DNA from: Candidatus Hydrogenedens sp.
Lineage (GTDB): Bacteria > Hydrogenedentota > Hydrogenedentia > Hydrogenedentales > Hydrogenedentaceae
NCBI GenBank assembly: GCA_049968235.1
Contig: JBMFRC010000001.1
Span: 96,001 to 160,000 of the forward strand
Length of the DNA stretch: 64,000 nt
Direction: 5' to 3'
Numbering within the stretch: position 1 is the stretch's first letter; every line of letters starts with the position of its first letter. The translations under genes and the position numbers were made by a program. Below, one piece after another: positions 7,420-51,768 of the stretch. The notes beneath the pieces were generated by a model that worked only from the letters and a program-made list of their open reading frames with translations, made no database searches and was not told the origin of the DNA.

Positions 7420-10400
7420 TTAAGAAGATTCTTTTCCAACATTGAAGAATCTGGCACCTGTAGTATCAATAATATCAGGAGTCACGAAGATTAACAAGCT
7501 GGATTGTTGAACCTCTTTTGATTTTCCACGGAAGAAAAATCCGATTAAAGGAATATCCGCAAGATATGGCATTTTTTGATTGTTATGGATGGTTTTATCT
7601 TGAACTAGACCGCCCAATACCAGAGTATCACCATCATGGACAATAACATTGGTCCATGCTGCCTGCCATGAAGTAGTTGGAAGAATAATTTCTGTTTTTG
7701 TTTCTGTTGTCCCAACAACATTTTTCTGTTCAAATTTCTTTTCTCCAATTCGTGCGCGTACTTCAGGGTTTAACCATAGACGCACCTGGTCATTATCACG
7801 AATTTGTGGAGTTACAGAAAGAGCAATACCGAAGTTGAATGGACTGAATTGGGGTTGTGTAATTACGGATTGTGTTTGAGAACCTCCAAAACCTCCTTCG
7901 GTTACATATACTTCATTATATACTTGCGTGAGATAATATTCTGTCTGGAAATCAGCCACTACTGCTGGTTTTCGGTTCATCGTTGTAACACGTGGAGCGC
8001 TTAACAATTCGGACTCTCTCAAACTATTTAGGTAATCAAATGCTACACTTAACTGGTCACCATCAGCATTATCAATTATTTTGGTTATTAAACTTAAAGT
8101 TGATGCGGCCGCAGCAGGAGCAGGTGGGTTAACTAACCCTGAAATGGTTCCTTGCGTTACTGAATTACGAACTACATTACTACCATCGGGTCGAACATAG
8201 AAAGGAACTTCTTCATCAACACCATCACCATTTATATCGTAACTGTAAGTTTGTTGAGATAGATAATCATTCTGACGAACTCTATTATTTAAATCACTTA
8301 GATTTCCCGTCCAGTTGAAACCTATTTTCTTCAAATCCTCAATACGCACCGTTAAAAATTTTGCTTCAATACTTACCTGTTTGGGGGTAACATCAATCTG
8401 TCCTAAAATCTGTTCAAATTTGTCCAGGTTTGTAGGAGTATTTGTTACGATTAACATATTTGTGGCTTCATTATAAGCAATTTTAGACAACACCTCACCT
8501 GTATAGGGTTCTTTCACAGGAGGGATGGCATCGGCAAGAATCTGTAATCCGGATAATTCCGTTTCTTCAAAACCAGCACCAGCACCTAACTGTGCTGTTC
8601 CCTGGGCACCACCATAACCTGTGGCTGTGGTTCCCGTTGCTAATGTTCCTCTACCCCCCAAACCACCTATGCCGGCACCTGTACCAACTTGAGTAATACC
8701 GATAGGACCTAATTCACCAACTATTTGGTCACTAATGGTAGAAAACATATCCGAAATATTGCTTAATGTTGTAACATCTCTTCCATAACCGCCGCCATAT
8801 CCACCCATTCCACCACCATACATTCCGCCACCATATCCGCCATATCCACCCATTCCACCACCATACATTCCGCCACCATATCCGCCATATCCGCCCATTC
8901 CACCACGATATCCGCCCATTCCACCACCATACATCCCTCCGCCATATCCACCGCCATACATTCCACCGCCATATCCACCACCATACATTCCACCGCCATA
9001 TCCACCACCATATCCGCCACCGCCATACATCCCACCGCCATATCCACCGCCATACATTCCACCGCCATATCCGCCACCATATCCGCCACCGCCATACATC
9101 CCACCGCCATATCCGCCCATTCTACCTCCATAACTTACGCCATATCCGCCACCATAACCTCCACCTACCCCGCCAACACCACCGAATGGATTTCTTAATA
9201 CTAATTTAAATAGACGGTCAGAACCGACATTTCTCATTTCATAAAATCGTGTTTCTAATGCTTCGAAAGTTTCCTGACGGATAATTTCAGGTTTACTAAT
9301 CCATACAAATCCTGGTTGAACAGAGAAATCCAAACCTAAGGGACGGAGTAAAGCTTTTAATGCTTCTCTCAAAGTAACATCTTTAAGACTGATATAAGGA
9401 ACAATACCATTGGATTTTGTTCCATAATATACATCTGGAGATACTGCATAACCTTGTTGTCCGGGAGCACCCAGAGGAGCACCCAAGCCACCACCTTGAA
9501 GGCCACCCGGCGGGGCTCCGCCAGGACCTCCTCTTAAACCAATACCTCCAGGAGCGACACCGGGCCCTGCCATGGGGGGACGTACTCCTCCGGGAGCACC
9601 GAAGGGCTGTCCTGGAGCACCGGGCATACCCATCGCACCGGGTTGGGCTGGCTGGCCTGGTGTTTGTTGAGGTTGCTGTTTAGAAGGAGGTTCTACGGCA
9701 CGATTATCAATAACTATGTTTACACCGTAACTATCAGAAATAAATGTTGTAATTTCACTGATATGAATATCTTCGAACTCGATACTAACGATGGAATCTA
9801 AGGACTTCTCTATTTCACTTACTTTGGTTACGGGAGCGGTTTCTTCTTCTATTTCAGGTACTGTAAATTTATAAGGTTTTATTCCTCGTGCATCGGCACC
9901 TTCAGGAATTTGTTTCGATTTTTCTATAAATTCCCTCACTCGGGCACGGTCTTCTGAAACTTTTCTCTCTGATTCTTTTACAGATTCCTGGTGAAGTTTT
10001 ATTGTTGCTTGATGCAATCCTTCACGAGCTGTATCATTTTTAGGGTCAATCAGTAAAATATTGTTATAAATCTCTACTGCAATATCAAATTTTTGTGCTT
10101 CCATATACCGCTGGGCATCGGAAAGTAATTTTTGAACTCTTTCTTTCTTTAATTCTTCTGCATTTTTTTCGGGCATCTCACCGGGTTGCGCTGGTTGAAA
10201 GGTTTCAAAAGCGGGGAGTGGAGTCATTTCTTTCTTTTCGCCAATAGATAATTGTAGTTGAGCATTACATTTTTGTTGATAAACCTGTGCCTCTTTATGA
10301 TTTGGGTCCAATGCGAGAGCACGATTAAATTCTGTAAGGGCTTCACGATAAAGTTCTTTCTTGTATAGTCCGACACCTCTACGGAAATATGTTTCTGCGT

Positions 10401-10677
10401 TTTCTTCTGTTGCTGTATTTTCCGTAGAAGCATCGGAAAGAACTGCTTCCTGAACAGTCACCGGTGAGACAGGTGGAGATTTCTCTGCTTCCGTTTGTGC
10501 GCGAGCACCATGTGTTGTCATAAGGAATATGACAGTTATCATTGATACGAACATCATAAACCCAAAATAGAATTTTTTCGTGGTACGCATTCGTAATTTT
10601 TCCTCCCGTGGTCTTTTAACCGTTTGGAAGTTGTTATTATATCTATAATTATCTACTAAATGACATTCCTTTTTCAT
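7420..10677 (-). CDS. pilQ: PilQ-like secretin (1,085 aa) with an N-terminal signal peptide, a TPR region, a coiled coil, a Pro/Gly-rich segment, a Gly-Tyr tandem-repeat low-complexity domain and a C-terminal secretin domain.
   Basis: Secretin signatures are QVSIEAKFLTVRIEDLKKIGFNWTG, LSVAFDYLNSLRESELLSAPRVTTMNRKPAVV and DGDTLVLGGLVQDKTIHNNQKMPYLADIPLIGFFFRGKSKEVQQSSLLIFVTPDII. N0/STN-like modules are SLDSIVSIEFEDIHISEITTFISDSYGVNIVIDN and SLKDVTLREALKALLRPLGLDFSV. The gene is the last in a pilM-N-O-P-Q order. The probable true start is the internal MRTTKKFYFGFMMFVSMITVIFLMTTHGARAQ. Confidence 0.8.
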   Translation of the reverse strand: MKKECHLVDNYRYNNNFQTVKRPREEKLRMRTTKKFYFGFMMFVSMITVIFLMTTHGARAQTEAEKSPPVSPVTVQEAVLSDASTENTATEENAETYFRRGVGLYKKELYREALTEFNRALALDPNHKEAQVYQQKCNAQLQLSIGEKKEMTPLPAFETFQPAQPGEMPEKNAEELKKERVQKLLSDAQRYMEAQKFDIAVEIYNNILLIDPKNDTAREGLHQATIKLHQESVKESERKVSEDRARVREFIEKSKQIPEGADARGIKPYKFTVPEIEEETAPVTKVSEIEKSLDSIVSIEFEDIHISEITTFISDSYGVNIVIDNRAVEPPSKQQPQQTPGQPAQPGAMGMPGAPGQPFGAPGGVRPPMAGPGVAPGGIGLRGGPGGAPPGGLQGGGLGAPLGAPGQQGYAVSPDVYYGTKSNGIVPYISLKDVTLREALKALLRPLGLDFSVQPGFVWISKPEIIRQETFEALETRFYEMRNVGSDRLFKLVLRNPFGGVGGVGGGYGGGYGVSYGGRMGGYGGGMYGGGGYGGGYGGGMYGGGYGGGMYGGGGYGGGYGGGMYGGGYGGGMYGGGYGGGMYGGGMGGYRGGMGGYGGYGGGMYGGGMGGYGGYGGGMYGGGMGGYGGGYGRDVTTLSNISDMFSTISDQIVGELGPIGITQVGTGAGIGGLGGRGTLATGTTATGYGGAQGTAQLGAGAGFEETELSGLQILADAIPPVKEPYTGEVLSKIAYNEATNMLIVTNTPTNLDKFEQILGQIDVTPKQVSIEAKFLTVRIEDLKKIGFNWTGNLSDLNNRVRQNDYLSQQTYSYDINGDGVDEEVPFYVRPDGSNVVRNSVTQGTISGLVNPPAPAAAASTLSLITKIIDNADGDQLSVAFDYLNSLRESELLSAPRVTTMNRKPAVVADFQTEYYLTQVYNEVYVTEGGFGGSQTQSVITQPQFSPFNFGIALSVTPQIRDNDQVRLWLNPEVRARIGEKKFEQKNVVGTTETKTEIILPTTSWQAAWTNVIVHDGDTLVLGGLVQDKTIHNNQKMPYLADIPLIGFFFRGKSKEVQQSSLLIFVTPDIIDTTGARFFNVGKESS
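8760..9180. repeat. Tandem DNA repeat with a period of about 21-45 nt. It encodes the Gly-Tyr-Met repeat (GGYGGGMYGGGGYGGGYGGGMYGGG...) of the secretin.
   Basis: Units such as ccaccaccatacattccgccaccatatccgccatatccaccc recur many times between about 8810 and 9130. The alternate-frame ORF 8763..9131 (MAV..DMAV.. repeats) is an artefact of the same periodicity. Confidence 0.8.
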
Positions 10678-10689
10678 TTTTTTCCTACC

Positions 10690-11202
10690 TTATTTTTGCA
10701 TTTCTAATGTGAATCTTCTTCCATATTGTTCCGAATATATAACAACTGTTTTATCTTCAGGATTAACCTGTTCAAGAATAAACTGTTCAAATTCTTCACC
10801 TTCATCATACCATTTTGTTGTAGACCGGGTACGAAGTTGTGCTCGCCTCCGTTCTCCCACCTGGCGAATATTAAGTAAAGTAATTCCAAGGTCTTTGGCT
10901 GTAATTTCTTTTGAACCCGTAGAACCTGTAGATTCACCGGCAAAATACCAGAAGGGATTTTCTCTCCATAGAGAGGCATAAGTCCCGGGTATTGATGAGA
11001 GAGGAGGTGAAGGTGGCACAGGTGGTTTAAGTTCATCGGGGACCTCCTTCCGAGGAGGAGAATAAACTTCTTCTTTTTCCGGTGGAGGTGGATATGCAAT
11101 TACATATACCCGGTATCCTAAAATTCCTACCAGAATAAGTAAAACAAATCTTTCTTTGTTCCACCAGAACCATATTCCTATTTTTTGTATTTTGTCTATC
11201 AT
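10690..11202 (-). CDS. pilP: PilP-like pilus assembly protein with an N-terminal TM helix, a proline-rich linker and a C-terminal beta domain.
   Basis: It sits between the pilO-like and pilQ genes. The TM helix is FVLLILVGILGYRVYVIAY and the proline-rich segment is PPPPEKEEVYSPPRKEVPDELKPPVPPSPP. The C-terminus LLNIRQVGERRRAQLRTRSTTKWYDEGEEFEQFILEQVNPEDKTVVIY resembles the PilP/GspC-HR fold pattern, in which an R-rich strand is followed by a 'G...F..V...D.VV.' motif. Confidence 0.45.
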   Translation of the reverse strand: MIDKIQKIGIWFWWNKERFVLLILVGILGYRVYVIAYPPPPEKEEVYSPPRKEVPDELKPPVPPSPPLSSIPGTYASLWRENPFWYFAGESTGSTGSKEITAKDLGITLLNIRQVGERRRAQLRTRSTTKWYDEGEEFEQFILEQVNPEDKTVVIYSEQYGRRFTLEMQK

Positions 11203-11211
11203 AGTATATAT

Positions 11212-12183
11212 TTAATTTGTATATAAAATATATCGTTTAAACCATTTCCATGCTTTTGCAAAAAAACCTGCTTGTTCAGCAGAAGTATCTTTATTTACGG
11301 ATTGTCGTCTTTGTCCACCTGCTCCCATTTGTGTCTGATATTGAAGTTGAATATCAATACTCACCTCCTGAGGAGGTTTGTAATTTGCTTGTGAAATAAC
11401 CATTTCTATCTGGAGCAAAGGCTCTACATTATAAGCGATATAGGGATACTGAATTCTAAGGGCATTGATATGAAAATAACGGTCCGCTAATCGTAATTTC
11501 TGCTCTACAAAATTTACGAAATCTTTCATTGTCATATTACAGCGGACTCCAAACACAAAAAACGATAATAATTTCTCAAAATCGGGATGCTGTGAAATAG
11601 GAGGCCAGAAAACAATATCATCTATACTTACCATTTTGGAATCCAAAAGGTATTCACACATCTTGATACCAAAGGCGAGTTTTGCCAACTGTCTATTTAC
11701 TAATTCTTCCGTAACATCTGTTCTTGATATTTCATCAAGACTAAGTACTCCTAAAGATTTTCGTATATCCTGAGGGAACAGGTCATACCGACCCATCTTT
11801 TCTCCTACTTTTTCATACAGTTGTTTTACCATTTTTTGTGCTTGTTCTTCATACCAGAATTTTAATATAACACCTTCTTTAGGGGGAACTTCATGGTCTG
11901 TCCAGTTACTCAGATTAAAGAAGGAAGACCTTTTCTTTAAGGCATCTTCCCAGGGTATTACTTGGGCTCGCCATTCACGAATTAATACTTCGGGGTCTGT
12001 TCGTGAAAAGGTCTGTTCTAAGTCTTTCAGTGCATTTTCATATGCTTTTTTTAAATCTTCATCTTTCTTATAGGCTGTGAGTTGTTTCTGTAAGAAGAAA
12101 TAGTAAACACCTGTAAAAAGGAGGAATGAAAGGAGTAGAACGGTAATATAGATAAGGGTGCCTCTTGAAATAGTTATATTCAT
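11212..12183 (-). CDS. pilO: PilO-like bitopic inner-membrane protein, assigned by position and topology.
   Basis: It has an N-terminal TM helix (LIYITVLLLSFLLFTGVYYFFL) and then a coiled-coil region. It lies between pilMN and the pilP-like gene and overlaps pilMN by 4 nt. No family-specific motif was recognised, and at 323 aa it is longer than a typical PilO. Confidence 0.35.
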   Translation of the reverse strand: MNITISRGTLIYITVLLLSFLLFTGVYYFFLQKQLTAYKKDEDLKKAYENALKDLEQTFSRTDPEVLIREWRAQVIPWEDALKKRSSFFNLSNWTDHEVPPKEGVILKFWYEEQAQKMVKQLYEKVGEKMGRYDLFPQDIRKSLGVLSLDEISRTDVTEELVNRQLAKLAFGIKMCEYLLDSKMVSIDDIVFWPPISQHPDFEKLLSFFVFGVRCNMTMKDFVNFVEQKLRLADRYFHINALRIQYPYIAYNVEPLLQIEMVISQANYKPPQEVSIDIQLQYQTQMGAGGQRRQSVNKDTSAEQAGFFAKAWKWFKRYILYTN

Positions 12184-14270
12184 GACCCTGCTCCTCCTCC
12201 GGTGGGTGCTAAATCTTTTGCAGACACCCGTTCAAACTGCACTGTGATTATAAAGGTAAACAAATTTTGGCCGGTTGCTGAAAATGCTGCTGTCTGTCCT
12301 GTCTGCTGGGATAATGCCCCCAATCGTTGTTGACCCCCAAAACTTCCTGTTCCTGGAGCAGAACTACCTTGAAACGCAGACTGTGCATTATATAAAGAAC
12401 TCCAGGGAGTTACCTGTACGCTGGCTTCAGAAAAGTAAACTTCTTTAATTCTTAAAACACCTTCCGAAAGATTTAACGAGGCTTTCTTCAAATTATCCAC
12501 AAAACTTTTAATGATAGTATCCGAAGTCGCTAACCCTGTTATACGAAATCCATTTGAACGAGGTAGAGGTGGTGCCTGTTGTGTTCCCGGTGATTGCTGT
12601 GTTGTTGGGGGGGGAGGAACGTTATCTCTTCTAAAAAGCCCTCCACCACCTGTTCCGCCCATTCCTACCATAGGTCCATGTGAACCTATTCCGGGGAAGC
12701 CTGAAATATTAACTGGAGTTTGTTGTTGCGTTGGTATACCCATAGCCGGGATATTCCTGCCTGCTGGCATAGGTTGCCCTGCTTGCGGTTGCTGGATAAA
12801 AACCGTTTCGATGGAACTAAACCATATTCCGTCTTTATCGGTTCGGGGAGGTCTTGCGGATAGAACCAGAGACATTTCATCCAACCAATATCTTCTATTA
12901 TAAACCGCTTTATCCAGTGCCTTTACTTTGTTTTCTAAGATTTTAATTTCTGCCTGTGCCTTACTCAATTCCTGTTTTAGAGGAGACACAATCGTTGGAT
13001 TCTGGGCTACTTCGGGGTCGTACATTCGCACATATCGGCGGAGTTCTTCTATTCTAGCCTTGACAAACTTATTCTGTGATGCATGTACAGGAATCACAGA
13101 TGCCATTATCAAGGCAAGGGTAATCATGGACAATGCCCAGTAAATGGCTTGTTCTTTTCTCCTTCGTATTTCTATGATACGCGGGGGAATAAGATTAATT
13201 TCTAATGCGGTTGTTTCCCAATTACGGAGTGCTAATCCCAAAACGACGCAACTTCTTTCAGGATGTTGAGCAATGGATTGTGCATCAGGACCGATTGTAA
13301 TACCACTGAGAGGCTGGGCAATTCGCACATCTATCCCTAAGGCACGCTGGAGGAATGGCACAATATTCCGAAGAGCACATCCTCCTCCACATAAATAAAC
13401 TCGTGTTACCTGTCCTCCACCGGGAAGTGAACGGAAATAGGAAAAAGAACGTTGAATTTCGTTTACAAGACGGTTCAATACGCGTCCAATGGCTTCTCCT
13501 CCTTTACCGTCAATTTGAGGATTCCCTGTAGGTGCGAAGCCTTTTTCACATTTAATTTTCTCCGCTTCCTCAAAAGGAATATTGAAAGTATCTGCAATAG
13601 CCTGAGTAATATCATTTCCACCGATATTTAATGTTCTTGTATTACGGAAAATGCCGTCGCGTTCTACAACAATATTTGTGGTGGAAGCACCAAGGTCAAT
13701 TACTGCGACGCATTCACTATGTGCATGAAGTTCCCCGTTATATTTGAGCCAACTATACGAAGCGAAAGGAATAACATCCACAATGTCAGGACTTAATTTT
13801 AACCCTTCCACAATAGATAAGTATTTATCAACCACATCTGTTTTGATGGCAACCATCAGAACTTCATAACCCCCTCCTTCTGGATGGTCTAATATCTGAT
13901 AATCAATGGCTATCTGTTTCAAATCAAATGGAATTTGTTGTTGAATTTCATATCTAACAATCTGGTCTACTTTCCTCTCCGCTACGGGAGGAAGCGAACG
14001 AACACGAACAAATACGGATTGACCCGGAACGGCTAACATTAATTTTCTGGTTTTTACTTTTGCCTGTTTTAATAGTTCTGCAACTGCTTTCTTTCGTAAA
14101 TCTTTTCGTTCCTCTTCATCCATCCGAAAATCATTCGTTACAGGTTTCTCAAAATATTTTATCAACTGCAGTCCACTTTTTGTTTTCTTAAATTCGCAAA
14201 GACGAACCGCAGAAGTTCCTATCTCAATGATTACTCTCTTTTTTCCTTTTCTTGTCGTATATACTGACAT
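12180..14270 (-). CDS. pilMN: Fusion of PilM (actin-like ATPase fold) and PilN, with a C-terminal Gly/Pro/Gln/Thr-rich low-complexity tail of about 250 aa.
   Basis: PilM hallmarks are RVIIEIGTSAVRLCEF, VAVIDLGASTTNIVVERDG and VYLCGGGCALRNIVPFLQRALGIDVRIAQPL. The PilN hallmark EINLIPPRIIEIRRRKEQAIYWALSMITLALIMASVIPV is followed by a coiled coil. The tail begins QPMPAGRNIPAMGIPTQQQTPV and ends ...GSFGGQQRLGALSQQTGQTAAFSATGQN. Confidence 0.75.
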   Translation of the reverse strand: MSVYTTRKGKKRVIIEIGTSAVRLCEFKKTKSGLQLIKYFEKPVTNDFRMDEEERKDLRKKAVAELLKQAKVKTRKLMLAVPGQSVFVRVRSLPPVAERKVDQIVRYEIQQQIPFDLKQIAIDYQILDHPEGGGYEVLMVAIKTDVVDKYLSIVEGLKLSPDIVDVIPFASYSWLKYNGELHAHSECVAVIDLGASTTNIVVERDGIFRNTRTLNIGGNDITQAIADTFNIPFEEAEKIKCEKGFAPTGNPQIDGKGGEAIGRVLNRLVNEIQRSFSYFRSLPGGGQVTRVYLCGGGCALRNIVPFLQRALGIDVRIAQPLSGITIGPDAQSIAQHPERSCVVLGLALRNWETTALEINLIPPRIIEIRRRKEQAIYWALSMITLALIMASVIPVHASQNKFVKARIEELRRYVRMYDPEVAQNPTIVSPLKQELSKAQAEIKILENKVKALDKAVYNRRYWLDEMSLVLSARPPRTDKDGIWFSSIETVFIQQPQAGQPMPAGRNIPAMGIPTQQQTPVNISGFPGIGSHGPMVGMGGTGGGGLFRRDNVPPPPTTQQSPGTQQAPPLPRSNGFRITGLATSDTIIKSFVDNLKKASLNLSEGVLRIKEVYFSEASVQVTPWSSLYNAQSAFQGSSAPGTGSFGGQQRLGALSQQTGQTAAFSATGQNLFTFIITVQFERVSAKDLAPTGGGAGS

Positions 14271-14524: not shown

Positions 14525-15922
14525 TTACTTCTTCTGTGCAGATAAATTTTGGGATAAGTCTTTTACACATCGGAAGCCATAATCTGAACGATTTGAATCC
14601 ATTCTGTCAAAATGACGACGGGCACATCTTGCGTCAAATTTTTCTGTCATAAAGGAACCTCCCCTTAACACACGATAAATTTGCCCATACTCTTTTCGGA
14701 TATACTGATTTCCTTCATATCGCTGATACCAGTCTGAAACCCATTCATATGCATTCCCTGCCATATCAAAACAGCCATAAGGTGAAACGCCTCCAATATA
14801 ACTACCAATAGGGACAGGCATGTCAAGATTTTTTTCTTTTGTGTTACATAAATCTAATGAGAATTCGTTTCCCCATGGGTATTCTCTACCATCTTCACCA
14901 CGAGCGGCTTTCTCCCATTCAATTTCGGTGGGTAATCTTTTCCCCACTCTTGTCGCATATGACACAGCCTGGTCCCATGAAACACCCGTTACAGGGTAGC
15001 GCTCTTGTCCTTTGGGGAAAGTATACTCTGGAAAAACTTTTTTAAATTCTTCATTTGTTACTTCGTATTTATCAATATAAAATGCAGGAACAAAAACTTT
15101 TTTTCTTGGTGCTTCATCGGGAGAACGTTCATTTTCACCAAAAATAAATTCACCTGCTGGGACCAATACCATTCCTGGGGGGGTTTCTCCTTCTTTTAAT
15201 ACAAGTGTAATAGTTTGCTCTTTGTTTGGTTGAATAACAACTTTTGAATGTTCTTCAATAAAACCATCTGCAGAAATTGTGATTAAATATTCACCCGGCG
15301 CAAGTTGCAATTGTAAGGGTGTCTTTTGTGATTGAGGGACATTATTAATCCGAACAGTTCCACCTGTGGGACGAGATAGAATATTTATCGTTCCTTCCAT
15401 AGGTTTCAAGATATATTTTATTGGGTAGTGAAAATCTTCACGGACTTCTAAATCACCCTCAACAGGATAGTAATCTGCCAGTTGCAATTTATATGTTTTA
15501 TGTCCAATTTCTACAGGATATCGGAAAATGGGGGTATTTCCTATCTTCACCCCATCCAGATAAACTTCGGCTCCTGAGGGTTCGGTTTCAAAATTAATAT
15601 ATCCCTGTAACGGCTTTAATTGTAATAGATATTGAGAATGTTCTCCGGGACGAAGAAGCAATGTTTCCACTGTTCGTTGATAATGTTCCTTTTTTAATAT
15701 TACTTCGAGAGAACCGGGAGGGAGATCTGTCAATGTCAGAGGAGTAACTCCTTTTTCCTCTCCAAATACAATAACCGTTGCTCCCTGTTCTGGTGCAGTG
15801 TCTATTGTAACACTGCTTAATTGTTGTCTTTTCTTTTCAGAGGAACACGATAAAACAAGAGATACAACGACAATCCAACCTATACCCCATACTACAGCCT
15901 GCTTCATATTACTGTTAACCAT
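14525..15922 (-). CDS. Lipoprotein with PEGA-like beta domains and a C-terminal formylglycine-generating-enzyme (FGE-sulfatase/SUMF1, DUF323) domain.
   Basis: The lipobox-like sequence is SLVLSCSS. The FGE signature is GEFIFGENERSPDEAPRKKVFVPAFYIDKYEVTNEEFKKVF...YPVTGVSWDQAVSYATRVGKRLPTEIEWEKAARGEDGREYPWGNEF...LRGGSF. The N-terminal half has repeated PEGA-type modules (GATVIVFGEEKGVTP..., AEVYLDGVKIGNTP..., GTVRINNVPQSQKTP). Confidence 0.7.
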   Translation of the reverse strand: MVNSNMKQAVVWGIGWIVVVSLVLSCSSEKKRQQLSSVTIDTAPEQGATVIVFGEEKGVTPLTLTDLPPGSLEVILKKEHYQRTVETLLLRPGEHSQYLLQLKPLQGYINFETEPSGAEVYLDGVKIGNTPIFRYPVEIGHKTYKLQLADYYPVEGDLEVREDFHYPIKYILKPMEGTINILSRPTGGTVRINNVPQSQKTPLQLQLAPGEYLITISADGFIEEHSKVVIQPNKEQTITLVLKEGETPPGMVLVPAGEFIFGENERSPDEAPRKKVFVPAFYIDKYEVTNEEFKKVFPEYTFPKGQERYPVTGVSWDQAVSYATRVGKRLPTEIEWEKAARGEDGREYPWGNEFSLDLCNTKEKNLDMPVPIGSYIGGVSPYGCFDMAGNAYEWVSDWYQRYEGNQYIRKEYGQIYRVLRGGSFMTEKFDARCARRHFDRMDSNRSDYGFRCVKDLSQNLSAQKK

Positions 15923-15997: not shown

Positions 15998-18900
15998 TCA
16001 TTCTCGCTGGAACATTTTTATTCTTTGCTCTTCTTTGGGTTGAGAAGGTGCAGTAATAGATCTTTCACTACTTCCTGCAGGAGGATATATTGTTACTGTA
16101 ACTTTTGCAGGAGTAGTATCCGCTACTAACGCTCCTGTTGTCGTATCCTGAACAAAGGCACGAACTACAAAATCATATTTCACTTCTCGTTTTCTAAATC
16201 CACCTTCAGGAGAGCCTTCATCTCCCAATCGGTCATTAAATACACCTGAACCACACTGAGTCGGTGGTAAATTTAAAAATTCAGGAGTTGATGTATACCA
16301 ATTTAAGTTGAATCGAGTACTTGCCTCATTGGGAGATAAGAAATCGGATGGGATACAAATCTCTGCAGTAGTATCTCCATATAACATCGATGCTGTTCCG
16401 CCTGCTACTAAATTAGAATCCTCAAATATTTGTATATCAAACCCTATTCTTCCAGAAACAAATCCTTCTGAAGGCAGGATACAAGACATATTTAATTTTA
16501 CTTCAATACGATAATCACAGGCATTTTCTAATGCAGGCAAAGGAACTCTTCGTGAGGAGCCAAATTCTCTTTCTCCAAAGTTATAATTTATAAATCTCCA
16601 TGTAGTTGGGTCAGCGGTAGAACGGTTCCACCAGGAGTTTATATCTAATTTAGTATCAATATCGAATTCACAGGGGTTACGCCAGATACAGAATGGGACA
16701 TTGTTCCCCGTTATTGTGCCTAATGAGTTAAATCTATTTCCGAACAAAATATTTGGGATTGGTTGGACATTTCCAGCTTCATCTGCACCAATAATTGTTG
16801 CCATTAAGAGGGCGCCACAATACCGTTTATCACTCAGAATATCATTAAGTGTTGTGATTGAGCCATCAGCGAACACTATTGGGGTATTCTTATCCATACT
16901 TTCACGATTAATAATCCAACCCCATCGACCTACAAATCTATCTACAGCCTCCCAGATAGAAGTTTCATAATTGAATGGGTCTATCGCAGACCATATACGA
17001 ATACCAAAAATAGGAAGGCAGGGGTCAGAATTTACAGGTTTATCCGATACACTTCTTGTCAACTTCCATTGTATATGTGGGTCCTTGTCCCACGCACCTA
17101 TCCGTGGAGCGGAGATAATTTCTATGACAGGGTCTCTCATCCACCATAATTCGAGAGCATCCTGTTGAGCAGGATTTTCTACCACTAAATTGCCCGACAA
17201 ATCTTTAACTAAAAACTTCATACGAATATGCCAATCCAAACCGAAACCAAGATTGAACCATCTCCATTTAACTAACGCAGACTGCCATGGTTGTGTATAT
17301 TCTGTTTGAGATGGGTCTGTTGTAGCAAAATATTCAACACCTGGATTCGATGTGTATGAAAGAACCCGACCTATATCGTTTAATGGAGCAATAAACGCAC
17401 ATCCCAGTCCTCTAAAAGGTTCAAGTCCTGTATATACAGGTCCATTTGTGAGTAAATCTATTATTGGCGTAACAGTAGTTGTAGATACATTGGACCTATT
17501 TGTAATAAATCCAGCAACTTCGACAATCCTCGGCGAGCCATTATATTCTGGATATGGGTCAGAGTAACCTGCTTGCAATATATATTCAAGAGGTGATTGA
17601 GGTAGATTATTGAAAAACATTTGTGCTGTCGGTGAAGTTTGATTACTTATTGTCCCATAAGAATATGCCAGAGGATTAAGAACTGCAGGACCCCAATTGG
17701 GTGGATAACTAAATTGAGATGGTGGAGAGATAACATCATTATTTTGTATAACGAATCCTACTGCAGTAGCATCATACAAATCATTTCTTAAACGCGGTGG
17801 GACCGTATCAATTACGAATTCTGTATCTTCTAAATAAAAGTTTATTCTATATTCTTGATTGGTTCCAATACCCATCAAAGTTTGATTTACTCGTAAATAA
17901 ATTCTCGCTCTACCATTTGTTGTGGATAGCACTCCATCTGTATCTGTTACAAATAATGAATCCATTGTGAACACACTTCTTCCTCTTTGACGAGTAGTAT
18001 CTATCGGGACAACCACTTGTTTTAATTCTGTTGGAAGTTTATTTAATTGTGATAACGGATTAGGATTATTTTTAACCAGAGGGACATATTCTTCGGGTAC
18101 GAGGTATAAGGTAGCATCATCAAGAGTTTCTCCCTGAATTCCTACTTCTACGGTAAATTCATTTCCGATACCTATATCTCTTTCCCTACCAGTAGCGCTA
18201 CGAGGAACTGTAGGACTTACATTACAATAACTCCACAAAAGTTCTGCACCTCCAATAATTACTTCATCGGCACTTACTTGAATGTTACGGATATCCCGAA
18301 CTTCATTTTCAAAGTCCGTATAAGGGGAGGGACTGGCACAACTTGTGAGACTTAAATAGGGTATAAATATATTTGGGACATAATTCAGAACTGCTTCGAG
18401 AGAGACCCGTGACGGGATAGGAGTTATCAATTTTCCTATCCATGGGCTATCATAGAAATGAACGGAAAGAGGGTCTATCGTTATAGGCGTTCCTACTTCT
18501 GTAACGCCCGTAATGATTGGAGGATACACAAGATTCCACCCACTTATTAGACTGGCTCCTGGCTCACATACCAATCCACCACCGGTGTTGTTCCAGACTA
18601 AGGTTGCCATAACATAGGTGCTTCCCGTTCCTTTGCTTTCAACACCTATACCTCCATTAGAATAAATTGTGCTTTGTACTATTGCAGTGGTTCCATTATT
18701 CAATACACCATCGTTCAAACTCCCATAGATAACCGTTTGTAAAATGGAAGCCTTTCCATCTGGCATAACCACAACGCCATCATCAAGTTTAGGACCTATA
18801 AAAGAACGACTCACTTTACTCATTCCTTGTATATTTAGGATACCAGCACTACCCTGGGTAAGGGAAAGGTTCTCAATGCATAAATTACCATTGAGGTGAA

Positions 18901-36801: not shown

Positions 36802-36831
36802 ATTACAAACTTTCTTTTATGTCTTCTTAAA

Positions 36832-37941
36832 CTATGCAACTTCTCCTTCTTTCTTGGGAGCAGGTCCACCTTCAATACCCAAAGCACGCGCAGCCGCTTC
36901 AAATTCATCCGGCATCTGTGCTTTGGCAAGGCAGTCTTCATATTTGCAAATACCCTTACGATACAGGGCAAGTAGATGTTCATCCAGCAAATTCATACCA
37001 TACTTATGTCCCGTCTGAATAGCGGATGTAATACGATAGGTTTTATTTTCACGAATTAAGTTTTGAATAGCAGGGGTACAATACATAATTTCATACGCAG
37101 CCACACGACCAAAACCACTTTTCCGGGGGACAAGAGTCTGGGAAATCACTGCTTTTAAGTTACCTGCTAACTGGGTCCGAATTTGTTCCTGCTGGTTTGA
37201 TGGGAAAGCGTCCACGACACGGTCTACCGTTCTCACCGCACCTGTGGTGTGAAGGGTTGCGAATACAAGGTGCCCCGTTTCGGCTGCGGTAATTGCCGCT
37301 TCGATAGTTTCGAGGTCACGCATTTCCCCGACGAGAATTACATCCGGGTCCATACGCAATGCTCTTCTCAAAGCCTCTGCGAAAGTCGGTACATCTACAC
37401 CTACTTCACGCTGGGTAATAATTCCTTTTTTATGGGTGTGATAGTATTCTATTGGGTCTTCAATAGTAATAATATGAGAATCTAAATTAGTATTAATCCA
37501 ATCAAGCATGGTAGCCAATGTTGTTGTTTTTCCGGAACCCGTGGGTCCTGTAATCAGAACCAATCCACGCGGTTGTCGGAGTAAGTTTTCTATATGTCGG
37601 GGCAAACCTAATTCTTCAAAAGTTAGTATTTTGCGAGGGATTAGTCGCAATACGATACCTACATACCCCTTTTGTTTAAAAATAGCCACACGGAAACGTG
37701 CAATATCCTCAAATGCGAAACCGAAGTCAGAACCACCTACTTCTTGCAATTCTTGTTGATTATCTACAGAAGCAATACTTTTCATTAATCGTTCGGTATC
37801 TTCGGGCGTTAATGGGTCTTCACCAAAGAAAACCAATCGACCGTGAACTCTTCCCACAGGAGGATTATCCACCGCAAGATGTAAGTCAGAGCCTTCACGG
37901 TCTATCAACATCCGCAATAAACTTACCATTTCATAAGCCAT
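36832..37941 (-). CDS. pilT: Twitching-motility retraction ATPase PilT.
   Basis: The whole 369-aa protein is close to canonical PilT: [77 protein letters not shown] and AIQNLIRE. The size is typical. Confidence 0.9.
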
Positions 37942-37963
37942 ATATGTATCTCCTTATATTCAA

Positions 37964-40531: not shown

Positions 40532-40548
40532 TTTCTCTACCTCATTTG

Positions 40549-43364: not shown

Positions 43365-43372
43365 GGTAATTT

Positions 43373-44260: not shown

Positions 44261-44263
44261 AAA

Positions 44264-45597: not shown

Positions 45598-45642
45598 AAT
45601 TTTAATATTTATACCTCATGCAAAAAATAATATCCTGCGGAA

Positions 45643-46038: not shown

Positions 46039-46041
46039 GTT

Positions 46042-47280: not shown

Positions 47281-47327
47281 ATTTTCTCAAAATATTATAA
47301 AGGGGTGTTTTTTTTCTTGCTTTCTTT

Positions 47328-51724: not shown

Positions 51725-51768
51725 GTTTCAACTCCTAATATATAAATATTTGTTGTTCATATCTATAA

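What the first reader, a model, noticed from the sequence alone, without database searches (positions are those of the whole stretch)
7420..10677. PilQ-like secretin carrying a collagen-like Pro/Gly segment and a prion-like Gly-Tyr-Met tandem repeat domain
Between the N0/STN-like modules and the conserved secretin C-domain the protein has two long low-complexity inserts. The first is about 80 aa of PxG-rich sequence (PGQPAQPGAMGMPGAPGQPFGAPGGVRPPMAGPGVAPGGIGLRGGPGGAPPGGLQGGGLGAPLGAPGQQG). The second is about 120 aa of near-perfect GGYGGGMYGGG repeats. Gly-Tyr-rich repeats of this kind are characteristic of phase-separating or prion-like domains (FUS-like) and of structural proteins such as silk, cuticle and loricrins. 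They are very unusual in an outer-membrane secretin. Possible roles are a flexible spacer through a thick or unusual periplasm or peptidoglycan layer in place of AMIN domains, or a self-associating or adhesive mesh around the pilus exit pore. A third possibility is a hypervariable region, given the perfect DNA tandem repeat.
Basis: seen in the sequence. Interest (0 to 1): 0.75.

Follow-up and report, generated by a model that had tools for sequence, protein, structure and literature searches.

The report
Secretin with rubber-like glycine-rich linker
A type IV pilus outer-membrane pore protein from an uncultured Hydrogenedentota bacterium carries a long, uncharged, floppy glycine/tyrosine/methionine array where known pores have a rigid connector; the array is conserved across the phylum, recurs in a second phylum, and has not been described in the literature searched.

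Summary
ORF 7420-10677 (minus strand, 1085 aa) is a type IV pilus secretin. It closes a conserved pilM-X-PilP-like-secretin cassette in a close relative of Ca. Hydrogenedens terephthalaticus. It has an 83-aa Pro/Gly/Ala/Gln insert inside the N0 domain. That insert is not collagen-like. After N0 comes a 136-aa array (G 64%, Y 19%, M 9%), part of about 210 disordered residues before N3. Every Hydrogenedentota orthologue has an array at this site, but only composition is conserved: about 62% Gly, regularly spaced Y/F/M/L, almost no charge, Pro or Ala. Three quarters of the non-Gly residues are not one mutation away from Gly, so the composition looks selected. A very distant Planctomycetota secretin family carries the same kind of array at the same site. 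An unbiased sample of other secretins almost never does. The array is not an assembly artefact, but it breaks short-read assemblies, so copy numbers are unreliable. My best reading, about 40% likely, is a compliant, self-cohesive, elastomer-like sleeve. It would join the N0/PilP ring to the N3/barrel and replace the rigid helix of canonical PilQ. Function is inferred, not shown. New variant of a known kind; interest about 0.6.

The parts
7420..10677 (-). Secretin ORF, 1085 aa as listed. The probable true start is M30 at nt 10590, giving 1056 aa.
   Evidence: ORF list. Pfam Secretin 1.8e-35. M30 is nearly invariant in 49 homologues. A Shine-Dalgarno-like GGGAGGA lies upstream of M30.
10498..10590 (-). 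Signal peptide, aa 30-60: MRTTKKFYFGFMMFVSMITVIFLMTTHGARA, with an A-x-A site.
   Evidence: Read from the sequence. AF2 predicts a helix at 34-54. Cleavage is inferred from the -3/-1 rule.
9913..10407 (-). N-terminal TPR/helical module, aa 91-255. It takes the place of the AMIN domains of classical PilQ.
   Evidence: TPR_2 9.3e-09 and TPR_1 4.2e-07. AF2 helices with pLDDT about 90. No AMIN hit at E <= 1.
9694..9816 (-). N0/STN-type domain, first half (beta-alpha-beta), aa 288-328.
   Evidence: Matches V. cholerae PilQ N0 residues 148-190. AF2 pLDDT about 83. The GspD_N0 and FecR_C profiles start here.
9445..9693 (-). Pro/Gly/Ala/Gln-rich disordered insert in a loop of N0, aa 329-411.
   Evidence: Composition. 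pLDDT 33-42. Deleting it in silico extends the GspD_N0 profile match from positions 2-28 to 2-55 of 71. Family-wide it is 46-102 aa with G25 P19 A17 Q10.
9268..9444 (-). N0/STN-type domain, second half, aa 412-470.
   Evidence: STN profile 18-51/52. AF2 strands and helix with pLDDT 81-85.
9187..9267 (-). Conserved pre-array motif (F)EALETRFYEMRNVGSDRLFKLVLRNP, aa 471-497. It may be the beta1-alpha1 of the N3 domain.
   Evidence: Invariant E472, R477, Y479 and N483. AF2 predicts a strand at 475-480. hhalign places it on the beta1-alpha1 register of an out-group N-domain profile, but only weakly, P = 0.036. A similar motif, ET.VYD.TDL, precedes the array in the Planctomycetota family.
8779..9186 (-). 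Gly/Tyr/Met array, aa 498-633: imperfect GGY/GGGMY repeats, uncharged and Pro-free.
   Evidence: pLDDT 28-32. An array is present at this site in all family members.
8701..8778 (-). Conserved acidic island DVTTLSNISDMFSTISDQIVGELGPI, aa 634-659. It is the only conserved sequence within the disordered stretch.
   Evidence: N640, I641, S642, F645, D650, V653, G654 and E655 are nearly invariant. Family comparison.
8554..8700 (-). Second Gly-rich (G/A/T/Q) disordered stretch, aa 660-708.
   Evidence: pLDDT 26-37. Family-wide it is 34-84 aa with G37 A15 T10 Q7.
8338..8553 (-). N3 (Secretin_N-type) domain, aa 709-780.
   Evidence: Secretin_N profile 34-69/69 at aa 732-767. hhalign to the out-group N-domain gives 97% probability. 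Matches V. cholerae PilQ residues 289-347.
7465..8337 (-). Secretin beta-barrel domain, aa 781-1071, including a conserved 48-57-aa insert at aa 837-891.
   Evidence: Pfam Secretin at 885-1071. Foldseek top hits are PilQ, GspD and InvG. Insert statistics.
10690..11202 (-). PilP-like partner, 170 aa: TM helix, Pro-rich linker and an HR-type beta domain.
   Evidence: AF2 with a 17-sequence alignment gives the beta domain at 108-168 with pLDDT about 86. The Foldseek top hit is the GspC HR domain from the GspC-GspD N0 complex 3oss_C (TM 0.79, rmsd 2.0 A), followed by PilP structures 2ivw, 2y4y and 3jc8. Conserved synteny.
11212..12183 (-). 323-aa membrane-anchored protein, PilO-like by position only.
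   Evidence: No Pfam, NCBIfam or PDB sequence hit. Conserved between pilM and the PilP-like gene in 33 of 35 loci.
12180..14270 (-). PilM fused to a C-terminal membrane/periplasmic part, 696 aa.
   Evidence: PilM_2 5.1e-47. TIGR01175 pilM scores 174 bits, above its cut-off of 133. The Amuc_1101 family scores 277 bits, below its cut-off.

Best explanation
What it is (high confidence): the outer-membrane secretin of a retractile type IVa-like pilus machine of Hydrogenedentota. Canonical PilQ has a rigid helix between the N0 ring and the N3 ring. This protein has instead about 210 intrinsically disordered residues there. The core of that stretch is a 136-aa uncharged, Pro-free Gly array studded every 3-5 residues with Tyr and Met.

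How it most likely works (inferred): N0 docks on the inner-membrane-anchored PilP-like protein. N3 and the barrel sit in the outer membrane. In the 12-15-mer, the 12-15 arrays are held side by side at more than 100 g/L, so their Tyr/Met/Phe 'stickers' associate weakly. Together they would form a compliant, self-cohesive, elastomer- or gel-like sleeve around the pilus path. This soft substitute for stacked rigid rings would let the inner- and outer-membrane halves of the machine stay coupled while distance and load change. It could also help close gaps around the conduit.

The P/G-rich loop in N0 and the G/A/T stretch would add non-cohesive flexibility. The conserved acidic island is a tethered docking or folding element.
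For: Shown:
- Secretin identity and T4aP context.
- A PilP/GspC-HR-fold partner is encoded next door. Its top structural match is the HR domain crystallised on a secretin N0.
- Residues 484-708 have AF2 pLDDT 26-44, flanked by confident N0 and N3.
- An array is present at the same anchored site in all 56 unique family segments, length 27-154 aa (median 118), with G 61%, YFW 11%, MLIV 13%, R+K 2.3%, D+E 1.1%, P 0.6%, A 1.1%. Sticker spacing is mostly 3-5 residues.
- Sequence is not conserved. Flanks are 94-99% identical in close relatives, but the array is only 63-77% identical, near its compositional floor. The sticker changes from Y to M, F, L or Q across the phylum.
- 75% of non-Gly residues are not single-nucleotide neighbours of Gly codons. 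Among non-Gly residues M is 19x, Y 6x and F 2.7x enriched, K, H and E are about 0, and D, A and P are 3-4x depleted. The array runs against the genome's AT bias, GC 0.56 against about 0.36. This points to selection on composition.
- The same kind of array (G 61, M 17, Y 7, almost no charge or Pro, median 118 aa) occurs at the same site in 90 of 112 members of a very distant Planctomycetota secretin family. A sub-clade there has an acidic loop instead.
- It is rare elsewhere: 9 of 88 unbiased out-group secretins, all 25-58 aa and mostly G/A/D/S/P. The T2SS GspD of the same window has none.

From the literature:
- Canonical PilQ links N0 to N3 by a rigid 32 A helix (PMC7545093).
- PilP binds N0 (PMC3441751).
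- Gly/Met/Phe-rich, Pro-poor abductin (GGFGGMGGGX) is a random-coil elastomer (PMC13052691).
- Regularly spaced aromatics in Gly-rich disordered protein drive condensation and gelation (PMC11794139).

Inference: 14 x 12.7 kDa gives about 150-460 g/L, depending on the assumed volume.
Against: - No experiment or multimer model places the array. It is unknown whether it lies inside, within or outside the vestibule wall.
- The topology is unresolved. If the pre-array motif is beta1-alpha1 of N3 (weak hhalign support, P = 0.036), the whole stretch is a closed loop of N3. It then could not act as an N0-N3 tether, although a cohesive collar would still be possible.
- Healing tests for N3 gave no gain.
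- A few deep-branching members have almost no hydrophobic stickers: P0044 is G/T/A, and P0050-54 are nearly pure Gly with sparse L/Q. Cohesion may therefore not be the ancestral requirement.
- Array length varies about five-fold.
- Repeat amplification can multiply a residue without selection on each copy.
- The oligomeric state and periplasmic location are taken from the secretin family, not tested here.
Confidence: 0.4

Rival explanations
1. Passive flexible linker. The Gly-rich stretch is only an entropic tether or spacer that gives the N0/TPR module freedom relative to the barrel. The Tyr/Met/Phe residues have no cohesive role. They are tolerated, or only tune chain dimensions or protease resistance.
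For: Very high Gly content is the one universal property. Some members have few or no hydrophobic stickers (P0044, P0050-54). Length is poorly constrained at 27-154 aa. The Planctomycetota sub-clade manages with a 45-aa acidic loop. T2SS and T3SS secretins link N-domains by unstructured loops (PMC7545093).
Against: Ordinary periplasmic linkers are rich in P, E, K, S, T and A. Here P, A, D, E and K are strongly depleted, while M, Y and F are enriched 3-19x and are two mutational steps from Gly. The same chemistry arose or persisted in a second phylum. The same protein uses a chemically different P/G/A/Q linker elsewhere, so composition is site-specific. A canonical T2SS in the same cell argues against an unusually wide periplasm.
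Confidence: 0.25
2. Lumenal FG-nucleoporin-like plug. The 12-15 arrays project into the periplasmic vestibule and form a cohesive mesh. The mesh seals the large channel when no pilus is present and closes around the pilus when it passes. This would be an in-cis equivalent of trans-acting plug proteins.
For: Sticker-and-spacer chemistry on chains anchored to a ring. If confined to a 9 x 10 nm vestibule, the density would be about 400-500 g/L. Secretins leak and need periplasmic plugs, SlkA/B, before the inner-membrane complex docks (PMC13392014). (GGM)n tails fill the GroEL cavity floor (PMC11978752). If the stretch is a closed loop of N3, a mesh or brush is the natural reading.
Against: No evidence on orientation. 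14 arrays occupy about 200 nm3 (my estimate from about 178 kDa), which leaves little room next to a 6-nm pilus in a 9-nm vestibule. The conserved VLGGL region of the secretin domain is invariant in the alignment, so a gate is presumably present. Sticker-poor members exist.
Confidence: 0.15
3. Order on assembly. The array folds only in the multimer, for example into polyglycine-II bundles, kinked beta (LARKS-type) stacks or an amyloid-like collar. It would rigidly staple protomers together.
For: Gly-rich repeats can form PGII or kinked-beta assemblies (own knowledge). GroEL tails sample PPII (title of PMC12571646). Secretin multimers are notoriously stable (own knowledge).
Against: There is no fixed period; sticker spacing ranges from 1 to 12 residues. 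Length, register and sticker identity all turn over quickly, even between 97-98% identical orthologues. AF2 gives pLDDT of about 30 with a 49-sequence alignment.
Confidence: 0.07
4. Contingency or hypervariable locus. The repeat exists to generate rapid length variation by slippage, for phase or antigenic variation, or as a selfish expansion.
For: Internal exact DNA repeats of 41-56 nt. Array length differs (102-142 aa) among orthologues with 94-99% identical flanks. Neisseria PilQ has polymorphic repeats that affect piliation (PMC3441751).
Against: All periods are multiples of 3, so slippage does not switch the frame. The region is periplasmic by secretin topology, so it is not exposed to antibodies or phage. 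Composition is conserved across two phyla. Length estimates from short-read MAGs are unreliable, because 33 contigs break inside the array.
Confidence: 0.05
5. Assembly artefact or pseudogene.
For: Repeats are hard to assemble. 43 of 80 related contigs run off at the 5' side and 33 of them start inside the array. One MAG (L007) has a frameshift there.
Against: The ORF is intact. The array is in frame in 35 independent full-length loci, including complete or long contigs of 1.6, 5.1 and 7.9 Mb. Gly-rich length does not correlate with contig length (rho -0.12, P 0.48). The flanking domains are under strong conservation.
Confidence: 0.01

Closest known systems
Type IVa pilus secretin PilQ (V. cholerae 6w6m; P. 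aeruginosa 6ve2; M. xanthus 3jc8)
   Same: N0 + N3 + secretin barrel. The best sequence and fold match is 6w6m. Encoded with pilM, a PilP-like gene, pilB, pilC, pilT and pilins.
   Different: No AMIN domains; an N-terminal TPR module instead. N0 is split by an 83-aa P/G loop. The rigid 32 A N0-N3 helix (PMC7545093) is replaced by about 210 disordered residues. TIGR02515 scores 144 bits, well below its cut-off of 284.
Neisseria PilQ small basic repeats (SBR)
   Same: The only low-complexity, polymorphic repeat documented in a secretin. It lies in the periplasmic N-terminal part and affects piliation efficiency. It was called 'unprecedented within the secretin family' (PMC3441751).
   Different: The SBRs lie between the two AMIN (B1/B2) domains, not at the N0-N3 junction. 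They are short and basic, whereas the array here is long and uncharged Gly/aromatic/Met. SBRs are genus-specific rather than phylum-wide.
Akkermansia-type pilus cluster (Amuc_1098 secretin / Amuc_1101 PilM-like families of NCBIfam)
   Same: Gene order pilM-like, two small proteins, secretin. The PilM fusion scores 277 bits to Amuc_1101 over 482 of 608 positions. The secretin C-half scores 142 bits to Amuc_1098.
   Different: Both scores are far below the curated cut-offs of 650 and 750. The N-terminal half of the Amuc_1098 model is not matched. I did not check whether Amuc_1098 proteins have Gly-rich arrays.
TPR-secretin family of Planctomycetota (Phycisphaerae/Sedimentisphaerales), found here and undescribed in the literature searched
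   Same: TPR/helical N-terminus, N0-like domain, the ET.VYD.TDL motif, then a G/M/Y(L,F) array of 34-192 aa, then a helix, N3 and secretin.
   Different: Only 51 bits to the query overall. No pil genes within 8 kb of P0096; it lies next to a 7393-aa ORF. A sub-clade lacks the array.
Abductin, the molluscan hinge elastomer
   Same: Gly/Met/Phe-rich, very low Pro, random-coil rubber with consensus GGFGGMGGGX (PMC13052691). The composition is very close to the family pool of G 62, M 8, Y 6, F 5, P 0.6.
   Different: Not homologous. Abductin is extracellular and covalently cross-linked. The exact decapeptide core is absent from the Hydrogenedentota arrays (0 of 56) and occurs in 1 of 120 Planctomycetota proteins.
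FG-nucleoporin domains, FUS-type LC domains and tick glycine-rich cement protein
   Same: Disordered chains with regularly spaced aromatic stickers in Gly/Ser/Gln/Asn spacers. This orthologue has 17 [G/S]Y[G/S] motifs. Spaced aromatics in a Gly-rich context drive condensation and gelation (PMC11794139). FG domains are likewise grafted on a ring-shaped channel (own knowledge).
   Different: Much higher Gly (about 62%). Met is a major sticker. There is very little Arg, and Q/N are nearly absent in this orthologue. No experimental evidence of cohesion here.
GroEL C-terminal (GGM)4M tails
   Same: Gly-Met repeats on every subunit of a ring, disordered, projecting into the cavity and functionally important (PMC11978752). 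(GGM)3 occurs in 6 of 56 Hydrogenedentota arrays and 20 of 120 Planctomycetota proteins.
   Different: The GroEL tails are 13 residues, cytoplasmic and C-terminal. Here the arrays are 100-150 residues, internal and periplasmic.
SlkA/SlkB secretin plug proteins of P. aeruginosa
   Same: They address a problem a cohesive array could also address: leakage through T4P secretins before the inner-membrane complex docks (PMC13392014).
   Different: They are separate folded periplasmic proteins acting in trans near the gate. No sequence relation was tested or expected.

Membership tests
Secretin superfamily (PF00263) | C-terminal secretin beta-barrel domain | tested here: met
   122.5 bits against a cut-off of 27.5, E 1.8e-35. 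Foldseek E 3e-14 to 1e-11 to PilQ, GspD and InvG.
Secretin superfamily (PF00263) | N3 (Secretin_N, ring-building) domain directly before the barrel | tested here: inconclusive
   Only the second half of the profile (34-69/69) matches, at 23.8-27.9 bits against a cut-off of 28.2. hhalign gives 97% probability for that half. The first half may be the pre-array motif, P = 0.036.
Secretin superfamily (PF00263) | N0 domain that binds an HR-domain partner (PilP/GspC) | tested here: inconclusive
   STN, FecR_C and GspD_N0 all score below their cut-offs (18-23 bits). After in-silico removal of the insert, GspD_N0 coverage extends to 2-55 of 71. AF2 gives a confident beta-alpha-beta / beta-alpha-beta-beta fold. 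A partner with an HR fold is encoded upstream. Binding itself was not testable.
Secretin superfamily (PF00263) | 12-15-mer ring in the outer membrane | not testable with these tools
   Assumed from the family. No multimer prediction was available.
Type IVa pilus secretin PilQ (TIGR02515) | Score above the curated family cut-off | tested here: not met
   143.7 bits against a cut-off of 284.35. The GspD, MshL and Amuc_1098 models score about the same, 137-147 bits.
Type IVa pilus secretin PilQ (TIGR02515) | AMIN domain(s) at the N-terminus | tested here: not met
   No AMIN hit at E <= 1. TPR repeats are present instead.
Type IVa pilus secretin PilQ (TIGR02515) | Encoded last in a pilM-N-O-P-Q type cassette, with PilB/PilC/PilT and pilins in the genome | tested here: met
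   pilM is above its cut-off at 174 against 133, and PilT at 461 against 319. PilB, PilC and N_methyl pilins are present. The PilP-like fold is confirmed. The cassette is conserved in 30-33 of 35 loci. The PilN/O equivalents are assigned by position only.
Amuc_1098 family type IV pilus outer membrane protein (NF042912) | Full-length match above the cut-off | tested here: not met
   142.5 bits against a cut-off of 750. Only model positions 425-803 are matched.
Collagen-like (Gly-X-Y)n | Long uninterrupted Gly at every third residue | tested here: not met
   The longest run is 4 triplets in segment 1 and 6 in the whole protein. Gly-Gly spacing is spread over 1-7 residues.
Prion-like / FUS-type low-complexity domain | Polar Q/N/S/G/Y-rich composition with multiple [G/S]Y[G/S] motifs | tested here: inconclusive
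   This orthologue has 17 [G/S]Y[G/S] motifs. However, Q/N are nearly absent, Met is 9%, and Tyr is not conserved in relatives. No PLAAC-type predictor was available.
Prion-like / FUS-type low-complexity domain | Self-association, phase separation or templated conversion | not testable with these tools
   Requires the purified segment.
FG-nucleoporin-like cohesive barrier | Hydrophobic/aromatic stickers in uncharged flexible spacers, many copies grafted on a channel ring | tested here: met
   Stickers make up 24% on average, spaced mostly 3-5 residues apart, with R+K 2.3% and D+E 1.1%. Grafting on a ring follows from secretin architecture and is inferred.
FG-nucleoporin-like cohesive barrier | Chains face the channel lumen and form a selective barrier | not testable with these tools
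   Orientation and permeability are unknown.
Abductin-type elastomer | Gly/Met/Phe-rich, Pro-poor random coil | tested here: met
   Pooled composition G 62, M 8, Y 6, F 5, P 0.6. pLDDT about 30. Reference description in PMC13052691. This is a resemblance of material, not homology.
Abductin-type elastomer | Decapeptide consensus GGFGGMGGGX | tested here: not met
   0 of 56 Hydrogenedentota arrays and 1 of 120 Planctomycetota proteins contain it.
Neisseria-type PilQ small basic repeats | Short basic repeats between the two AMIN/beta domains | tested here: not met
   No AMIN domains. The array is uncharged and lies after N0. Description in PMC3441751.

The most novel reading that the evidence does not exclude
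The 12-15 Gly/aromatic/Met arrays of one secretin ring form a true cohesive condensate, an FG-nucleoporin-like or rubber-like gel, inside or around the periplasmic vestibule. This would give a bacterial outer-membrane channel a self-sealing, elastic, selectively permeable 'soft gate' that the pilus (or giant cargo) pushes through. The solution would have evolved or persisted in at least two phyla, Hydrogenedentota and Planctomycetota. It would be the first natural pore-grafted phase-separating barrier known in bacteria.
Probability: 0.2. Interest if true: 0.85.

Novelty: new variant of a known kind. Interest (0 to 1): 0.6.

Why it matters
Secretins are the largest gated pores of Gram-negative outer membranes, and they are thought of as stacks of rigid rings. 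Here a whole phylum, plus an unrelated secretin family in Planctomycetota, replaces one rigid connector with 100-150 residues of uncharged Gly/aromatic/Met polymer. The chemistry matches natural elastomers and phase-separating domains.

If the arrays are cohesive, this would show that the stickers-and-spacers principle is used in the bacterial periplasm to build a soft channel wall, gasket or shock absorber. It would also offer a second answer, in cis, to the recently recognised secretin-leak problem.

It is directly testable with recombinant fragments and PilQ chimeras, even though the organisms are uncultured.

There is also a practical point. The array systematically breaks short-read assemblies of this gene, which probably explains why it has gone unnoticed and why many database entries are truncated at this point.

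Tried and rejected
(1) Collagen-like reading: rejected, because there is no Gly-X-Y periodicity.

(2) Assembly artefact or pseudogene: rejected.

(3) Phase-variation switch: rejected, because all repeat periods are multiples of three.

(4) 'Unusually wide periplasm' spacer: weakened. The same window encodes a canonical T2SS with an ordinary N0 plus three Secretin_N domains and a normal GspC.

(5) Split-N3 hypothesis, in which the array is a loop inside N3. I tested it by deleting the insert in silico and rescanning against Pfam, against my own N-domain HMM built from out-group GspD/MshL secretins (only 7 constructs matched my anchors), and by hhalign. The fused constructs gave no extension. 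There was only a weak hit in the right register for the isolated motif (P = 0.036). This remains unresolved.

(6) AF2 coordinates are not exposed to the sandbox, so strand pairing could not be read.

(7) Sequence searches for the 323-aa and 170-aa neighbours in Pfam, NCBIfam and the PDB gave nothing. Only the fold search identified the 170-aa protein. The 323-aa protein remains unassigned.

(8) Met-rich Cu(I)-binding motif idea: dropped. There is no MxxM in this orthologue, and Met is replaced by Y, F or L in relatives.

(9) Estimating how common Gly-rich arrays are from the word-indexed searches is biased towards Gly-rich candidates. I therefore used the index-free search with the low-complexity-free C-terminal 385 aa.

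(10) Literature searches for prior descriptions found none. The searches covered secretin with glycine-rich or low-complexity terms, Hydrogenedentes with pili, Planctomycetes secretin, and periplasmic phase separation. The library lacks most subscription journals.

(11) Pfam on the giant neighbouring ORFs was uninformative.

Full report
**1. The observation**

The window contains an intact 1085-codon ORF on the minus strand at 7420-10677. Its C-terminus is an unambiguous secretin domain: Pfam PF00263 scores 122.5 bits against a cut-off of 27.5. The best solved relative is the V. cholerae type IVa competence-pilus secretin PilQ, 6w6m. That holds by sequence profile (E 6.7e-34) and by fold (Foldseek E 3.4e-14).

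- Residues 329-411 are 31% Gly, 23% Pro, 12% Gln and 12% Ala.
- Residues 498-636 are 64% Gly, 19% Tyr and 9% Met.

Long ORFs of the same strand average 7.5% Gly, 3.9% Tyr and 2.2% Met. No other ORF in the 64 kb has a Gly-rich stretch. The DNA under the array is 56% GC in a genome of about 36% GC.

The repeats are not perfect. Tandem Repeats Finder reports periods of 21, 27, 42, 45 and 69 nt with 64-97% matches. The longest exact internal repeats are 56 and 41 nt. Gly codons are mixed: GGT 32, GGA 28, GGC 25.

Segment 1 is not collagen-like. The longest uninterrupted Gly-X-Y run in it is four triplets.

The translation start is ambiguous. M30 is nearly invariant across homologues and opens a signal peptide.

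**2. Anatomy**

An AlphaFold2 model built on 49 homologues gives the layout below, supported by profile matches.

| Residues | Element | Support |
|---|---|---|
| 30-60 | signal peptide | sequence, helix 34-54 |
| 91-255 | TPR/helical module | pLDDT about 90 |
| 288-328 | first half of an N0/STN-type domain | pLDDT about 83 |
| 329-411 | disordered P/G insert | pLDDT 33-42 |
| 412-470 | second half of N0 | pLDDT 81-85 |
| 471-497 | conserved strand-helix motif | invariant residues |
| 484-708 | disordered stretch | pLDDT 26-44 |
| 709-780 | N3 | pLDDT 63-76 |
| 781-1071 | secretin barrel | Pfam, Foldseek |

The disordered stretch holds the Gly/Tyr/Met array (498-633), a conserved acidic island DVT.ISNISDLF.TI.D..VGE (634-659) and a G/A/T/Q stretch (660-708).

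Removing the P/G insert in silico extends the GspD-N0 profile match across the junction, from positions 2-28 to 2-55 of 71. The first insert is therefore a loop inside N0, not a spacer after it.

The array occupies the place where V. cholerae PilQ has a rigid 32 A helix joining N0 to N3 (PMC7545093).

I could not settle whether the pre-array motif is the missing beta1-alpha1 of N3, which would make the whole 498-708 stretch a closed loop. The fused constructs gained nothing in Pfam, in my own HMM or in hhalign. The isolated motif did align in the correct register, at P = 0.036.

**3. Genomic context**

The secretin is the last gene of a cassette on the minus strand:
- a PilM fusion at 12180-14270, with the pilM model above its cut-off;
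- an unassigned 323-aa membrane protein at 11212-12183;
- a 170-aa protein at 10690-11202;
- the secretin.

The 170-aa protein has no sequence-family hit. Its AF2 model is a TM helix, a Pro-rich linker and a confident six-stranded beta domain. The best structural match is the GspC HR domain crystallised on GspD N0 (3oss_C, TM 0.79, rmsd 2.0 A). PilP structures from Neisseria, Pseudomonas and Myxococcus follow. It is therefore a PilP-like partner for N0.

Further upstream lie pilins, PilC, two PilB paralogues and a PilT above its curated cut-off. This indicates a retractile T4a-type pilus.

The cassette, flanked by an FGE-sulfatase/PEGA gene and a Kdo transferase, is conserved in 30-33 of 35 full-length related loci.

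The window also encodes a complete T2SS at about 40.0-52.7 kb. Its GspD has a normal N0 and three Secretin_N domains and no Gly/aromatic array. It serves as an internal control and argues against an unusually wide periplasm.

**4. Relatives**

The closest genome is Candidatus Hydrogenedens terephthalaticus, 97-98% identical over the C-domain. All 134 confirmed loci in the species-representative genome collection carry Hydrogenedentota names or placeholder names.

Every orthologue has a Gly-rich array between the same invariant anchors...ETRYYELRN.G..LFK.VLRN and DVT.ISNISDLF.

Across 56 unique arrays:
- length is 27-154 aa, median 118;
- Gly is 61%, aromatic residues 11%, Met/Leu/Ile/Val 13% and Ser/Asn/Gln/Thr 10%;
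- Arg+Lys is only 2.3%, Asp+Glu 1.1%, Pro 0.6% and Ala 1.1%;
- hydrophobic or aromatic residues recur mostly every 3-5 positions.

The sequence itself is not conserved.
- The Hydrogenedens clade uses GGY/GGM units.
- Other clades use GGGQF, GGNSGGF, GGGGF, GGGGL, GMGMG or SYGSSGSRSG units.
- A few deep branches are nearly sticker-free, such as P0044 (G/T/A) and P0050-54.

Between orthologues whose folded parts are 94-99% identical, the array is only 63-77% identical, close to its compositional floor. Its length differs (102-142 aa). It even shifts from Tyr-dominant in this window to Met-dominant in relatives. The P/G insert evolves like an ordinary disordered loop and is 95% identical to the closest relative.

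**5. Is the composition selected?**

Single-nucleotide changes of Gly codons yield R, A, V, S, C, D, E and W. However, 75% of the non-Gly residues in the arrays are other residues, led by Met (22% of non-Gly), Tyr (17%) and Phe (15%).

Relative to the folded C-terminal part of the same proteins, Met is enriched about 19-fold, Tyr 6-fold and Phe 2.7-fold among non-Gly residues. Lys, His and Glu are essentially absent. Asp, Ala and Pro are depleted 3-4-fold.

Repeat amplification can multiply a residue without selection on each copy. Even so, independent expansions across the phylum always amplified uncharged units with hydrophobic, aromatic or amide side chains, against the genome's AT bias.

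**6. How unusual is it?**

The word-indexed searches are biased towards Gly-rich candidates. I therefore searched 1.84 billion cluster representatives with only the low-complexity-free C-terminal 385 residues.

The family forms about 28 representatives. After a sharp drop come secretins at 30-40% identity.
- Of 88 out-group secretins of at least 600 aa, 9 have any stretch of at least 50% Gly. All are 25-58 aa and mostly G/A/D/S/P.
- Of 17 family representatives of at least 800 aa, 15 have such a stretch.

One very distant hit, P0096 (51 bits), belongs to a family of at least 266 TPR-secretins from Planctomycetota, with Phycisphaerae and Sedimentisphaerales names.
- 90 of 112 full-length members carry an array of 34-192 aa (median 118).
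- Its composition is G 61%, M 17%, Y 7%, R 0.7%, D 0.5% and P 0.4%.
- It lies directly after a motif, ET.VYD.TDL, that resembles the Hydrogenedentota pre-array motif, and before a helix-N3-secretin unit.
- A sub-clade has a 45-aa acidic loop there instead.

The same kind of segment at the same architectural site thus exists in two phyla, by convergence or from a very old ancestor.

In the library searched I found no description of this. The only documented low-complexity repeats in a secretin are the Neisseria PilQ small basic repeats, described as 'unprecedented within the secretin family' (PMC3441751).

**7. Artefact check**

Of 80 related contigs, 43 run off at the 5' side of the gene. 33 of these begin inside the array, and one MAG has a frameshift there. 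The array therefore breaks short-read assemblies, and copy numbers from MAGs should not be trusted.

Its existence is secure. It is in frame in 35 independent full-length loci, including contigs of 1.6, 5.1 and 7.9 Mb. The amount of Gly-rich sequence does not correlate with contig length (rho -0.12, P 0.48).

**8. Mechanism**

Shown:
- the protein is a T4P secretin;
- N0 has a PilP-like partner encoded next door;
- the N0-N3 junction is about 210 disordered residues;
- the core array has a selected, uncharged, sticker-and-spacer composition.

Taken from established knowledge:
- secretins are 12-15-mers with periplasmic N-domains;
- PilP/GspC HR domains bind N0 (3oss; PMC3441751).

Inferred:
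- Fourteen arrays of 12.7 kDa held on one ring reach about 150-460 g/L, depending on the assumed volume.
- This is a regime in which Gly-rich chains with spaced aromatics condense and gel (PMC11794139).
- It is also a regime in which Gly/Met/Phe-rich, Pro-poor chains such as abductin behave as random-coil rubber (PMC13052691).

My best explanation, at about 0.4, is a compliant and weakly self-cohesive sleeve. It would couple the N0/PilP ring to the N3/barrel and stand in for rigid connectors.

The main rivals are:
- a purely passive linker (0.25), favoured by the sticker-poor members and the loose length constraint;
- a lumenal FG-like plug (0.15), attractive in view of the secretin-leak problem solved in trans by SlkA/B in Pseudomonas (PMC13392014) and of the (GGM)n tails in the GroEL cavity (PMC11978752);
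- order on assembly (0.07);
- contingency variation (0.05);
- artefact (0.01).

**9. Verdict**

The protein is a new variant of a known kind: a secretin with a conserved elastomer- or FG-like disordered module. It is not a member of the collagen, prion or abductin families.

It is more interesting than a one-off oddity, because it is phylum-wide, compositionally selected and recurrent in a second phylum. Its function rests on analogy. Interest is 0.6.

Noticed in passing
window 40019-52731 (minus strand): A complete type II secretion cluster: GspC (51769-52731), GspD (49067-51724, 885 aa), GspE, GspF, GspG, pseudopilins, GspK (42090-43364) and a PilM/N- or GspL-like protein (40549-42108). Its GspD has a 150-aa Pro-rich N-terminal extension but no Gly/aromatic array.
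   Followed up: partly
window 15998-21919 and 21923-29533 (minus strand): Two giant ORFs of 1973 and 2536 aa lie between the pilin genes and the FGE/PEGA-pilM cassette. They have essentially no Pfam domains, only a sub-threshold lamin-tail hit. They could be pilus-associated adhesins or cargo.
   Followed up: partly
window 55399-63696 (minus strand): A 2765-aa ORF with PKD and IPT/TIG domains lies upstream of the T2SS cluster, next to an 805-aa protein with a weak matrixin-like hit (52915-55332).
   Followed up: partly
window 14525-15922 (minus strand): A protein with three PEGA domains and an FGE-sulfatase domain lies immediately upstream of pilM. It was seen in that position in 16 of 35 related loci, and in the others the fetched flank often ended before it. 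Its role in the pilus system is unknown.
   Followed up: partly
L004, L005, L017-L019, L022, L025, L027-L029 and others (33 loci): Public MAG contigs very often begin inside the Gly-rich array of this gene. The array is a systematic short-read assembly breakpoint, and many database copies of the secretin are 5'-truncated at about residue 634.
   Followed up: yes
L007 (CAZJTZ010000005.1), locus about 7514-8200: The orthologue in this MAG is frameshifted within the array. The upstream part reads as an out-of-frame 'GILLVVLVEEVVV...' peptide. This is either an assembly error or a real pseudogene.
   Followed up: no
L081 (ENA ERZ27256798 k141_889315), gene 8001-11252: The Planctomycetota TPR-secretin P0096 carries a GGY/GGM array and is followed by a 7393-aa ORF. 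PA14 and Laminin_G_3 proteins lie upstream, and there are no pil genes within 8 kb. Array-bearing secretins may be linked to giant proteins in both phyla.
   Followed up: partly
window 8701-8778 (aa 634-659): A conserved acidic island, DVT.ISNISDLF.TI.D..VGE, sits between two Gly-rich stretches. It is the only conserved sequence in about 210 disordered residues. It may be a tethered binding motif or a displaced helix of N3.
   Followed up: partly
window 8212-8244 (aa 812-822): The motif YDINGDGVDE (D814 and D818 invariant, G817 and G819 nearly so) in the secretin domain looks like a DxNxDGxxD calcium-binding loop.
   Followed up: no
window 7765-7929 (aa 837-891): A conserved 48-57-aa acidic insert with low pLDDT in the secretin domain is present in all family members.
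   Followed up: no
window 8763-9131 (minus strand, other frame): A 122-aa ORF made of MAV/DMA/ECM repeats is the out-of-frame reading of the array. It is a by-product of the repeat, not a gene.
   Followed up: yes
window 35023-39805 (minus strand): Two PilB-type assembly ATPases (592 and 613 aa, both with MshEN domains) flank one PilT (369 aa). The 592-aa one also matches a c-di-GMP-binding MshE-related motif.
   Followed up: no
window 10591-10677: The listed ORF starts 29 codons upstream of the family-conserved Met30. The closest relative, L001, keeps the extension, so the true start is uncertain.
   Followed up: partly
P0088, P0089, P0093 (distant GspD-type secretins): Some GspD-type secretins of other lineages carry shorter Gly + Phe/Met/Leu stretches. 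In P0088 the stretch lies in the alpha1-beta2 loop of an N-domain. That site may be a generally permissive spot for such inserts.
   Followed up: partly
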